NCBI RefSeq assembly: GCF_058153355.1
Contig: NZ_CM177019.1
DNA length: 64,000 nucleotides
Direction: 5' to 3' (one strand)
Shown here: in pieces, positions 39,329-43,299 of the stretch
Position numbering within the stretch: position 1 is the first letter of the stretch
Layout of the letters: every line of letters begins with the position of its first letter
Position numbers and translations under genes: made by a program
Notes under the pieces: model-generated
Database searches by the model: none
The model's input: only the letters and a program-made list of their open reading frames with translations
Told to the model about the DNA's origin: nothing

Positions 39329-39889
39329 TATTCTGCTCCAATTGTGATGTTTGTTGTTTTAACCCTTTGCAGTGGGTTGTCGCTGCCTGACCTTTTTTGT
39401 TTTTTACCCGGTCGGGTCAACGTTATGAGGTGGGGATGCCGTACTAATTAACATCAGTGTAACAGTGCGGATCCTCCATAAAATGCCCCTCGTGACCTAC
39501 AATCTGTCAACAGAATGTGAAAACGTCAATACAGCCAACCGGGATTTACATCAACGGTGAGAATCCACAAACAAAGATTAAAAAAACTTCAAACAGCTAT
39601 TTGCAGCAGAGAAATTTGTGCTACGCCAACATAACCAGAACAATCAGCGTAATATTTAGCAACATTTGGTGATTAAGTTTTATGCATTTAATGAAAAAAA
39701 TCTGAGGAAAAGGTGGATATCTGAGCGATTAATACCATGAAAGCTAAAACGCACAGCGGAAAATGCCAGCGCCAGCCATAAGTAACGCAAAAAAAAGATT
39801 TAAGCAAATATAAAAAAGACAATGGATTCTGTCACAAATCCGTTAATGGATAGTGAGATGTGGGGCGCAAATTTGGCAGGGAAATATGT

Positions 39890-41202
<1,313 letters not shown>

Positions 41203-41410
41203 CATGCCTGCAATCTGGGAAACCGGGGTAGAAAAAAACTTGCAGGCCATAACAGTATCTACGTTCAGATTTGGTCGGTGCCAGAGGATTACTCGCCACT
41301 GCGTGGCTCGCCCTGCGGGCCGTTGCTGACGCAACGTTCTCTCGCTTTGCTCGAGTCGAACCTCTCTGCCCCCGGAGGTTCTTATCCTCTTCAGGTCGCA
41401 GAAAGCAAAA

Positions 41411-41436
41411 AACCAGCCCGTAGGCTGGTTTTTCTA
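41411..41436 (-). terminator. Rho-independent terminator downstream of proK
   Basis: Hairpin AACCAGCCCGTAGGCTGGTT with U-run on the minus-strand transcript, just 3' of the tRNA. Confidence 0.5.
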
Positions 41437-41439
41437 AAT

Positions 41440-41516
<77 letters not shown>

Positions 41517-41607
41517 AATGCGGGGCGCATCTTACTGCGCAGATACGCCCTCGTCAATCCCTTAATAGCAAAATGCCTTTTGATCGGCGAGAAAGTCAGC
41601 AGGCTTC

Positions 41608-43299
41608 TTAGTTAGCCGCTGCCTCTTTTGCCTGCGGGATGTGGCACCAGTTGTTGTTTTCGTTAATTCCACCATCCGGTGAAGTATAGCCAAGACAACC
41701 CATGATGGTGTCGTACAGCTCTACGTGACGGCGTGGCACTTTCATATCAGCTTCTTTTTTCAACTGCGCAAATGCCTGCGCGTTGGCTGGATTTTCCAGA
41801 TATTTATCCGACATCCAGACCATCATCGGTACGCGGAACTGCTCCGGCGGTGCCAGTTCACGCGGTGTGCCGTGCAGGTGCTCGCGTTCGTTAATTGACT
41901 CACCGTGGTCAGCTGCGTAGAACACAATCGCTTTCTTATCGCGAACCTGATCAATCACGCTGGAAATAAAGTGATCCACATAGGTCACCGAGTTGTCGTA
42001 GGAGTTGATCATCTGCGCTTTGGTACAGCCGCTATCAACACCAATACATTCTGGCTTCCACTGCGCAAAGCTGCGCGGGTAACGCTGGGTGTAGTTAAAG
42101 TGCGACCCCTTGGTATGCAGAATGATCAGATGCTTACCATCCGGGTTGCGCCCCAGCGATTGCTGCATTTCGTCTACCAGCAACATATCATCTACCGGCT
42201 TGCCGCGGTTACGCGGTTCCGCACCAATCTGCTCACGATAAGCAATGTTGTCTGCCATCGTGTTGCTGTAGAACCACATTTCGCTTTGCATAGCGTAGAG
42301 ATCAGAACTGAATCCTAACTGCTTCAATACCGCGAAAATGTTCTGTTCTTTTAATGTGCGCTGCGGATTATCTTCTGCTCCACCCTGACGCACAAACATG
42401 CAACGCAGAGAAAGTTTGGTCGCCGTGTCACAAGAATAGCCACGAAACGCCGCCAGATTTTTCTCCTGAGCCAGTTTCGGTGTGGTATTGCGTTCATAGC
42501 CGAAAATGCCCATATGATCCCAGCGCGTGGTTTCACCAATAATGAAAACGACATATGTATCATCAACGTTTTGTGGAGCCTGGTACGTAAACTTCTTCGC
42601 AGGGTTAAGGAGAGAATTGTTATCGGAAGATTCATCGACCCGCGCCCAGGCATAAAGACCTAACGCCGAAAGCCAGTTTGATGGCAGATAAGAGTTCGCG
42701 ACAACGCCACCATAACTCGGCAAATCAACACCTGTCGCCCTCTCCACTTTCTTCTGCTGGATATCCAGCAAACGAATCGGTGCCCAAACCATAATACCTG
42801 CCAGTACGACGACCGCCAGACTCCGAATACGTTGCCCTGGGGTTCGCAGTTGTCGGAGCAAGGTGTAGCGACAGCGGTTATTCCAGATAAGGATAAGAGG
42901 CAATGCGCTTACGGCGATTAACCAGAGAATAAAGTTCAGACCAACAACTTCTTTTGACAGGTCGATATCGGTGGTCATGACGGATGCGATGATGCCATAA
43001 CCAATGACCACATTAAGGAAAGTCATGTAATAGCTGGCACCTGCAGAAAAGAGCACCACCAGCGATGCCAGAATTCGCCAGCTGCGGCGGCCAAACAGCG
43101 AAAGCAGACGCAGTAAAAAGAAGGTCACCAGTACGGTAGCGACCAGTTCAACAACAGCAGAAACGCCTTTCCAGACGGTAAAATCGTGCGCATAGCTGCC
43201 GAAGCGGCGGTAAAAAACCGCGCCATTCATAAAAAGGCCAATATAGATTGCAAGCAAAAAGCTCAGCTTCTGCTGTGTAATCGATTTGATGTATCTCAT
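41608..43299 (-). CDS. eptB: Kdo2-lipid A phosphoethanolamine transferase
   Basis: ORF 41608..43332; start set at [10 protein letters not shown] (563 aa); N-terminal TM segments plus sulfatase-like domain. Confidence 0.85.

What the first reader, a model, noticed from the sequence alone, without database searches (positions are those of the whole stretch)
41240..41260. Split sigma70 promoter across the two ends of the IS621-like element, complete only when the ends are joined
The right end carries TTGCAG at 41240..41245 and the left end carries TATTAT at 39983..39988. Joining right end, CT core and left end as in a circular intermediate gives TTGCAG, a 17-bp spacer (GCCATAACAGTATCTTG), then TATTAT, a near-consensus promoter with a predicted start near 39995 where the structured RNA begins. 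In the integrated copy the -10 is instead preceded by REP sequence (CTGACG, 39960..39965), a weaker -35.
Basis: partly seen in the sequence, partly recalled or inferred. Interest (0 to 1): 0.7.

Follow-up and report, generated by a model that had tools for sequence, protein, structure and literature searches.

The report
Known IS621 circle-junction promoter (Pjunc)
The two half-promoters are really there and belong to an intact copy of the E. coli mobile element IS621, whose circle-junction promoter for its bridge RNA was already published for this very element in 2024, so the finding is correct but not new.

Summary
Observation confirmed. TTGCAG lies at 41240-41245, 13 bp inside the right end, and TATTAT at 39983-39988, 2 bp inside the left end. 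Joining right end, CT core and left end gives TTGCAG, a 17-bp spacer, then TATTAT, with a predicted start at 39995.

The element (39981-41258, CT cores at 39979-80 and 41259-60) is an intact IS621 variant. It is 97.6% identical in DNA to the common form, and its recombinase matches the published one at 322 of 326 residues. An empty site in nine E. coli genomes confirms the boundaries.

Durrant et al. 2024 (Nature) report that the IS621 circle reconstitutes a sigma70 promoter across the core. Their 177-nt bridge RNA begins with AGUGCAGAG, which is window 39995. Removing the right end removes the -35 box and cis activity.

My comparison of 37 distinct orthologue junctions (50-83% protein identity) shows TTG at exactly this spacing in 36.

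One sub-claim fails. The REP-derived CTGACG of the integrated copy is not a weaker -35 by hexamer scoring (4/6 against 3/6 matches; 3.37 against 2.85 bits). This is unusual, since only 3 of 38 insertion sites supply it. "Near-consensus" also overstates a 3/6 -35. Interest is low.

The parts
39898..39979 (+). REP/BIME pair, the host target into which the element inserted. The target is ATCAGGCCT^ACG.
   Evidence: Rfam naRNA4 (REP-derived) hit of 69.6 bits. The empty site is contiguous in nine E. coli genomes.
39960..39965 (+). CTGACG, a REP-borne -35-like hexamer 17 bp upstream of the left-end -10 in the integrated state.
   Evidence: The consensus scan calls CTGACG-17-TATTAT with 9/12 matches. 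PWM score is 3.37 bits. It is present at only 3 of 38 distinct insertion sites.
39979..39980 (+). Left copy of the CT core dinucleotide.
   Evidence: Sequence, the published IS621 layout and the empty site.
39981..40172 (+). Left non-coding end (LE), 192 nt here and 191 nt in the published IS621.
   Evidence: Matches the published LE apart from the apical loop of the target-binding loop.
39983..39988 (+). -10 hexamer TATTAT of the junction promoter. Its first three bases lie within the right donor arm TGTAT.
   Evidence: In 37 orthologue junctions it is TATTAT in 25 and TATTGT in 9.
39995..40172 (+). Bridge RNA, 178 nt here. The 5' A lies 7 nt after the -10.
   Evidence: The published bridge RNA begins AGUGCAGAGAAAAUCGG. 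Published small RNA-seq shows about 177 nt starting from the predicted promoter. The fold gives -65.7 kcal/mol, z = -4.49.
40173..41153 (+). IS621 recombinase ORF, 326 aa.
   Evidence: ORF listing. 322/326 identical to the published IS621 recombinase. Pfam PF01548 and PF02371 both match.
41154..41258 (+). Right non-coding end (RE), 105 nt.
   Evidence: Matches the published RE with a few substitutions.
41177..41196 (-). GC-rich hairpin in the RE, terminator-like on the minus strand where a T-run follows it. It lies 44 bp upstream of the -35. Its role is inferred only.
   Evidence: Terminator scan. The hairpin stem is retained in the long-RE orthologues L069, L073 and L078.
41230..41239 (+). 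A-tract AGAAAAAAAC directly upstream of the -35. It is a possible UP-element-like contribution, which is inference.
   Evidence: A-rich sequence at this place is kept in enterobacterial orthologues. From -60 to -36 the junction is 52% A+T and the integrated flank 28%.
   Evidence: TTG is found at this offset in 36 of 37 orthologue junctions. In the paper, deleting the RE removes the -35 and cis-encoded function.
41259..41260 (+). Right copy of the CT core dinucleotide.

Best explanation
This is Pjunc, the junction promoter of IS621, an IS110-family insertion sequence that moves through a double-stranded circular intermediate.

How it works:
- Excision joins the right end to the left end through a single CT core.
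- This places the right-end -35 (TTGCAG, preceded by an A-tract) 17 bp upstream of the left-end -10 (TATTAT).
- Sigma70 RNA polymerase then starts at the A at 39995. It transcribes the roughly 177-nt bridge RNA and, by read-through, the recombinase gene.
- Both components needed for insertion are therefore boosted on the circle.
- After insertion the -35 is carried 1.28 kb away to the far end, and the -10 is left facing whatever the target REP provides.

Shown here: the sequence anatomy, the element boundaries, the identity to IS621, and conservation of the split -35 and -10 at fixed spacing.

Shown in the literature for IS621: transcription from the RE-LE junction, the RNA 5' end, and loss of cis function when the -35-bearing RE is removed.

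Inferred: a difference in strength between the circle and this particular integrated context, any role of the A-tract, and read-through into the recombinase gene.
For: - Anatomy.
- Boundaries: empty site.
- Identity to IS621: annotated 'IS110-like element IS621 family transposase', 97.6% DNA identity; 322/326 aa; PF01548 and PF02371.
- Published sequences: the published LE, RE and bridge RNA match, and the RNA 5' end corresponds to window 39995.
- Published experiments, Durrant et al. [quoted passage not shown] Small RNA-seq shows a peak of about 177 bp starting from the predicted sigma70-like promoter. [quoted passage not shown]
- Other literature: PMC12288879 names this Pjunc and lists IS621 among the elements that have it.
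- Comparative evidence: in 37 distinct orthologue junctions the -35 columns are T in 37, T in 36 and G in 37. The -10 is TATTAT or TATTGT in 34, and the spacer is always 17. The -35 is kept in three different coding contexts.
- Insertion sites: at 35 of 38 distinct IS621 insertion sites the flank gives a poorer -35 than TTGCAG.
Against: - The -35 matches only 3 of 6 consensus positions. On its own it has P about 0.027 at a fixed place.
- At this site the REP supplies CTGACG at the same 17-bp spacing, with an equal or better hexamer score. The sequence alone therefore does not predict that the circle is stronger than this integrated copy.
- In 25 of 37 orthologues the TGA inside TTGAC is also the recombinase stop codon. 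Part of the -35 conservation is thus confounded with coding.
- The donor-arm columns, and the first three bases of the -10, were required by my extraction pattern. Their invariance is partly by construction.
- No circle junction was seen in any fetched sequence.
- No expression data exist for this exact variant copy.
Confidence: 0.93

Rival explanations
1. At this particular insertion site the promoter is not specific to the circle. The REP hexamer CTGACG plus the left-end TATTAT forms a hybrid promoter about as good as Pjunc. This integrated copy would then already make bridge RNA and recombinase. This complements the Pjunc reading and does not exclude it.
For: - The consensus scan calls CTGACG-17-TATTAT with 9/12 matches, and its rules would not call TTGCAG-17-TATTAT at 8/12.
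- The approximate PWM gives 11.32 bits for the integrated arrangement against 10.80 for the junction.
- No other promoter-like site on the plus strand of the left end passes the scan.
- An integrated element must express some RNA and enzyme in order to excise, which is a logical requirement. PMC12288879 proposes weak native promoters for that role.
Against: - CTGACG lacks the first T of the -35.
- The upstream region is GC-rich REP, 28% A+T from -60 to -36, against 52% with an A-tract at the junction.
- The PWM is approximate: consensus frequencies recalled from Hawley and McClure, with the remainder spread evenly.
- The REP palindrome may bind host proteins or act as an insulator, as proposed for ISPpu10.
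- There are no expression data.
Confidence: 0.3
2. The conserved TTG at the right end is kept for recombination, as recombinase or bridge RNA contact with donor DNA, or for coding, and not for transcription.
For: - It lies only 13 bp from the core.
- The neighbouring donor arm is invariant.
- In 25 of 37 orthologues it overlaps the TGA stop codon.
Against: - A 22-bp donor lacking this hexamer recombines when the bridge RNA is supplied in trans.
- In the IS621 lineage the hexamer lies 84-98 nt beyond the stop codon, and in 6 orthologues it lies inside the ORF without a stop. TTG is kept in both cases.
- The columns between the hexamer and the donor arm, -30 to -27, vary.
Confidence: 0.04
3. The -35-like hexamer is a chance match with no function.
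For: It matches 3 of 6 positions, with P about 0.027 at a fixed spacing and about 0.08 over spacers of 16-18.
Against: - It is conserved in 36 of 37 orthologue junctions at the identical offset.
- Published RNA-seq and deletion data support function.
Confidence: 0.02

Closest known systems
IS621 junction promoter driving the bridge RNA (Durrant et al., Nature 2024, PMC11208160)
   Same: It is the same element: 97.6% DNA identity and 322/326 aa. The -35 TTGCAG, the 17-bp spacer across the CT core, the -10 TATTAT and the RNA 5' end AGUGCAGAG are all the same.
   Different: - This copy is a rarer sequence variant. Only 5 of 2252 E. coli records match it at 99% or more.
- It has a 1-nt longer apical loop in the target-binding stem (CTTAGGTTTTCAACCTG instead of CTTGGGTTCTAACCTG). 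The guide segments are unchanged.
- It has a few substitutions upstream of the -35 (GGGGTAGAAAAAAAC instead of GGACCAGGAAAAAAC).
- It sits in a REP that happens to supply CTGACG at the -35 position.
Pjunc of other IS110/IS1111 elements (ISPpu10, ISEc11, IS492) and of IS3, IS21 and IS30 family circles
   Same: The -35 lies at one end and the -10 at the other, and the two are brought to working distance only in the circle.
   Different: - In IS110 elements the transcript begins with a guide (bridge) RNA and not just the transposase mRNA.
- Not all members have a junction promoter. ISPpu9 circles form no hybrid promoter.
ISPpu10 state-dependent regulation model (bioRxiv 10.64898/2026.03.19.712850)
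   Same: A REP-targeting IS110 element whose Pjunc forms on the circle, while the resident copy is proposed to be kept quiet by target-derived structure.
   Different: - That model relies on a target-derived terminator hairpin and a weak internal promoter.
- For the window copy the target REP may instead add a -35-like hexamer.
- Nothing of this was tested for IS621 at this site.

Membership tests
IS621 (IS110 family, bridge-RNA-guided recombinase element) | [quoted passage not shown] | tested here: met
   Pfam: PF01548 at residues 8-152 (E = 2.2e-24) and PF02371 at residues 196-280 (E = 7.5e-26).
IS621 (IS110 family, bridge-RNA-guided recombinase element) | Sequence identity to the named element. 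| tested here: met
   97.6% over the full 1280 bp to copies annotated as IS621 in E. coli genomes. 322/326 aa to the published IS621 recombinase.
IS621 (IS110 family, bridge-RNA-guided recombinase element) | No terminal inverted repeats, a CT core on both sides, and insertion into a REP at ATCAGGCCT^AC. | tested here: met
   The flanks read ...TTATCAGGCCT | element | CTACG. The empty site is contiguous in nine genomes. The REP is identified by the Rfam naRNA4 hit. Absence of terminal inverted repeats was judged by eye only, from the end sequences TGTATTAT... and ...ACAGTAT.
IS621 (IS110 family, bridge-RNA-guided recombinase element) | A left-end-encoded bridge RNA of about 177 nt with target-binding and donor-binding loops. 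| tested here: met
   Window 39995-40172 matches the published bridge RNA except for the apical loop of the target-binding stem. It is strongly structured, z = -4.49. No Rfam family covers it.
Junction promoter (Pjunc) of circular IS intermediates | A -35 near one end facing outward and a -10 near the other end facing inward, at 16-18 bp spacing only when the ends abut. | tested here: met
   TTGCAG-17-TATTAT in the in-silico junction. The two halves are 1.25 kb apart in the integrated copy.
Junction promoter (Pjunc) of circular IS intermediates | The split arrangement is conserved in related elements. | tested here: met
   36 of 37 distinct orthologue junctions carry TTG at the same offset. 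34 of 37 have TATTAT or TATTGT. The spacer is 17 in all.
Junction promoter (Pjunc) of circular IS intermediates | Transcription actually starts at the junction promoter. | not testable with these tools
   Published for IS621: small RNA-seq from an RE-LE plasmid and loss of cis function without the -35. Not measured for this variant.
Junction promoter (Pjunc) of circular IS intermediates | The junction promoter is stronger than the promoter of the integrated copy. | tested here: inconclusive
   By hexamer score the integrated CTGACG-17-TATTAT (11.32 bits) is not weaker than the junction (10.80 bits) at this site. At 35 of 38 other sites the integrated context is weaker. The upstream A-tract favours the junction. 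Measurement is needed.
Junction promoter (Pjunc) of circular IS intermediates | A circular intermediate with abutted ends exists. | not testable with these tools
   No RE-CT-LE junction was found in the 146 fetched loci. Circles are reported for the IS110 family in the literature.

The most novel reading that the evidence does not exclude
At the minority of REP sites whose loop reads GCTGACGC (3 of 38 distinct sites, this window included), the host REP supplies a -35 hexamer at the exact 17-bp spacing. Such resident IS621 copies could then express bridge RNA and recombinase without first forming a circle. They would act as 'source' copies that excise or transpose more readily than copies at other REPs. 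A second idea is related. Pjunc lies on the donor recombination site, since its spacer is the left donor arm plus the core and its -10 overlaps the right donor arm. Binding of the recombinase and bridge RNA complex could therefore shut off its own promoter.
Probability: 0.2. Interest if true: 0.4.

Novelty: already known. Interest (0 to 1): 0.12.

Why it matters
The split promoter explains how IS110-family elements confine high expression of their guide RNA and recombinase to the excised circle. It is part of the biology behind bridge-RNA genome editing tools. It was published for IS621 itself in 2024, with precedents in IS492 and in the IS3 and IS30 families, so finding it again here adds no new principle.

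Two small additions come from this work:
- The split -35 and -10 at a fixed 17-bp spacing extends to orthologues down to about 50% protein identity. In these the recombinase stop codon often doubles as part of the -35.
- The circle-only logic depends on context, because some REP targets, including this one, bring a -35-like hexamer of their own.

Tried and rejected
- Rfam: an E-value-mode search of 39500-41700 found no family covering the left-end RNA. Hits were only to the flanking REP (naRNA4), the RtT-like RNA and tRNA-Pro. Rfam could therefore not be used to place the RNA 5' end.
- Natural circle or tandem junctions: I searched all 146 fetched loci for AACAGTATCTTGTAT and found none.
- Original IS621 description: Choi et al. 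2003 (PMC166490) is not held in the library.
- Extended -10: rejected. The TG lies at -14/-13, directly abutting the hexamer, not at -15/-14.
- Internal candidate TTGTAT-17-GAAAAT (39980-40008, 8.09 bits): not pursued. It is present in both states, and its predicted start would fall inside the 5' stem-loop, away from the published RNA 5' end.
- CazIS110-1 preprint: it contained nothing on native promoters.
- Quantitative promoter-strength model: none was available. The PWM uses consensus-base frequencies recalled from Hawley and McClure 1983 with the remainder spread evenly, so differences of about 0.5 bit are not meaningful.

Full report
**1. What is in the sequence.** The left flank ends ...CTTATCAGGC-CT (CT at 39979-39980) and is followed by TGTATTATCC. 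The right end reads ...CATAACAGTAT-CT (CT at 41259-41260) and is followed by ACGTTCAG. Joining the right end, one CT and the left end gives TTGCAG GCCATAACAGTATCTTG TATTAT, a 17-bp spacer. The base 7 nt after the -10 is the A at 39995.

**2. What the element is.** A 326-aa ORF on the plus strand (40173-41153) carries PF01548 and PF02371, the two IS110 recombinase domains. It is 322/326 identical to the published IS621 recombinase.

- The 1280-bp element matches 2252 E. coli records, where it is annotated 'IS110-like element IS621 family transposase'.
- It is 97.6% identical to the common 1279-bp form. Only 5 records match at 99% or more, so this is a rarer variant.
- The flanks joined with a single CT occur as one contiguous 400/400 stretch at 99.5% identity in nine E. 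coli genomes. This fixes the boundaries and the target ATCAGGCCT^ACG.
- The left flank is a REP pair (Rfam naRNA4, 39898-39979). The right flank holds an RtT-like RNA and tRNA-Pro on the minus strand.
- There is one copy in the window.

**3. Is it more than chance?**

- For a single sequence the -10 is good. P is about 0.002 for a hexamer scoring at least as well at a fixed place.
- The -35 matches only 3 of 6 positions, with P about 0.027.
- With an approximate PWM the junction scores 10.80 bits. Only 13 site and spacer combinations on both strands of the 64-kb window reach this.
- 'Near-consensus' is therefore too generous for the -35.

**4. Comparative evidence.** This is the strong evidence. 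A protein-guided scan of one genome per species returned 78 loci with relatives at 33-83% identity. I located the ends through the conserved donor arms and, for several elements, through comparison of copies in different flanks. This gave 37 distinct junctions.

- The three leading -35 columns are T in 37, T in 36 and G in 37. The hexamers are TTGACT (10), TTGACG (9), TTGCAG (4), TTGACC (4), TTGCGT (2), TTGATT (2), TTGACA (2), and TTGCAT, TTGATC, TTGCAA and TGGCGC (1 each).
- The -10 is TATTAT in 25 and TATTGT in 9.
- The spacer is always 17.
- Columns -30 to -27 and -6 onward vary.

Two caveats apply. The donor arms and the first three bases of the -10 were part of my extraction pattern. In 25 junctions the TGA inside TTGAC is the recombinase stop codon. 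However, TTG is also kept where the ORF runs through it and stops at the TAA in ATAACAG (6 cases). It is kept as well in the IS621 lineage, where it lies 84-98 nt past the stop. Coding alone therefore does not explain the conservation.

**5. What is already published.**

- Durrant et al. [quoted passage not shown]
- Their small RNA-seq of an RE-LE plasmid shows a peak of about 177 bp 'starting from the predicted endogenous sigma70-like promoter'.
[quoted passage not shown] This abolished recombination unless the bridge RNA was supplied in trans.
- Their Supplementary Table 1 gives an RE ending ...GGAAAAAACTTGCAGGCCATAACAGTAT, an LE starting TGTATTATCCCTCC, and a bridge RNA starting AGUGCAGAGAAAAUCGG. 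The published 5' end therefore corresponds to window 39995.
- The 22-bp result also shows that the -35 region is needed for RNA supply and not for recombination itself.
- PMC12288879 calls such promoters Pjunc. It lists IS621 among the elements that have one and shows that ISPpu10 has one while ISPpu9 does not.
- The window RNA, 39995-40172, folds strongly at -65.7 kcal/mol with z = -4.49. It differs from the published RNA only in the apical loop of the target-binding stem, which is 1 nt longer here. The guide segments are unchanged.

**6. The sub-claim that fails.**

By consensus count it matches 4 of 6 positions against 3 of 6 for TTGCAG.
- The tool's own scan calls CTGACG-17-TATTAT with 9/12 matches. 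Its rule of at least 4/6 per hexamer would not call the junction.
- The approximate PWM gives 3.37 against 2.85 bits for the hexamers, and 11.32 against 10.80 bits for the whole promoters. That difference is within the error of such a matrix.
- The upstream context does favour the junction. An A-tract (AGAAAAAAAC, 41230-41239) abuts the -35. A+T from -60 to -36 is 52% at the junction and 28% in the REP flank. Any UP-like effect is inference.
- I then asked how typical this site is. I collected 69 left junctions from metagenome contigs, three E. coli genomes and the window. They fall into 38 distinct upstream flanks. Only 3 of these supply CTGACG. The other 35 score 1.56 bits or less, and most have TGCGCT at -2.72 bits.

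The general logic, a constant good -35 on the circle and a poor, variable one when integrated, therefore holds. This window is one of the exceptions.

**7. Mechanism, with status.**

- Shown here: the anatomy, the boundaries, the identity to IS621 and the conservation.
- Shown in the literature for IS621: transcription from the junction, the RNA 5' end, and dependence on the -35-bearing right end.
- Inferred: read-through into the recombinase gene, greater strength of the circle than of this resident copy, the role of the A-tract, and the role of the RE hairpin 41177-41196.

**8. Verdict.** It is already known for this very element, so interest is low. The only mildly new points are the depth of conservation, the overlap of stop codon and -35 in distant orthologues, and the REP-supplied -35 at this site.

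Noticed in passing
L081-L121 (e.g. L097 about 2440-2475); window 41150-41245 for comparison: In 25 of 37 orthologue junctions the recombinase TGA stop codon is the TGA inside the -35 TTGAC. In 6 (TTGC variants such as L070, L077, L099) the ORF runs through the -35 and stops at the TAA inside the donor arm ATAACAGTAT. In the IS621 lineage about 90 nt, including a hairpin, lie between the stop codon and the -35.
   Followed up: partly
window 39946-39980: The REP stem-loop that received the insertion has the loop GCTGACGC. This places CTGACG exactly 17 bp from the element's -10. Only 3 of 38 distinct IS621 insertion sites have this REP subtype.
   Followed up: yes
window 40050-40066: This copy differs from the published IS621 bridge RNA in the apical loop of the target-binding stem. 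It reads CTTAGGTTTTCAACCTG instead of CTTGGGTTCTAACCTG, which is 1 nt longer. The guide segments are unchanged. The whole element is a rare variant, with only 5 of 2252 E. coli records matching at 99% or more.
   Followed up: partly
window 41177-41196: A GC-rich hairpin (ACAGCGCC-TGAC-GGCGCTGT) lies in the right end. On the minus strand it is followed by a T-run, so it looks like a terminator for transcription entering the element from the right. On the circle it would sit 44 bp upstream of the junction -35. The stem is kept in orthologues L069, L073 and L078.
   Followed up: no
window 41272-41406 (-) and 41443-41516 (-): An RtT-like RNA (Rfam RF00391, 95.8 bits) lies next to a tRNA gene that E. 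coli records annotate as tRNA-Pro. Both are immediately right of the insertion. E. coli records annotate the same pair at the empty site.
   Followed up: no
L001 415 (E. coli 2017-02-2CC copy, 99.6% identical to the window element): The closest relative of this copy has T instead of A at the published bridge RNA 5' nucleotide (CCTCCTGTGCAG). Its -35 context is AAAAAAAATTGCAG.
   Followed up: no
window 41246-41260 + 39981-39988 (as joined): The junction promoter is physically the donor recombination site. Its spacer holds the left donor arm and the CT core, and its -10 overlaps the right donor arm. Binding of the recombinase and bridge RNA complex could occlude the promoter. This is an idea only and was not tested.
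   Followed up: no
H53-H62, dppA-proK intergenic region of other E. coli genomes: Other E. coli genomes also carry an IS621 copy in this intergenic region. The match comes in two pieces and spans about 80 bp more than the window stretch, which suggests a different local arrangement or REP content.
   Followed up: no
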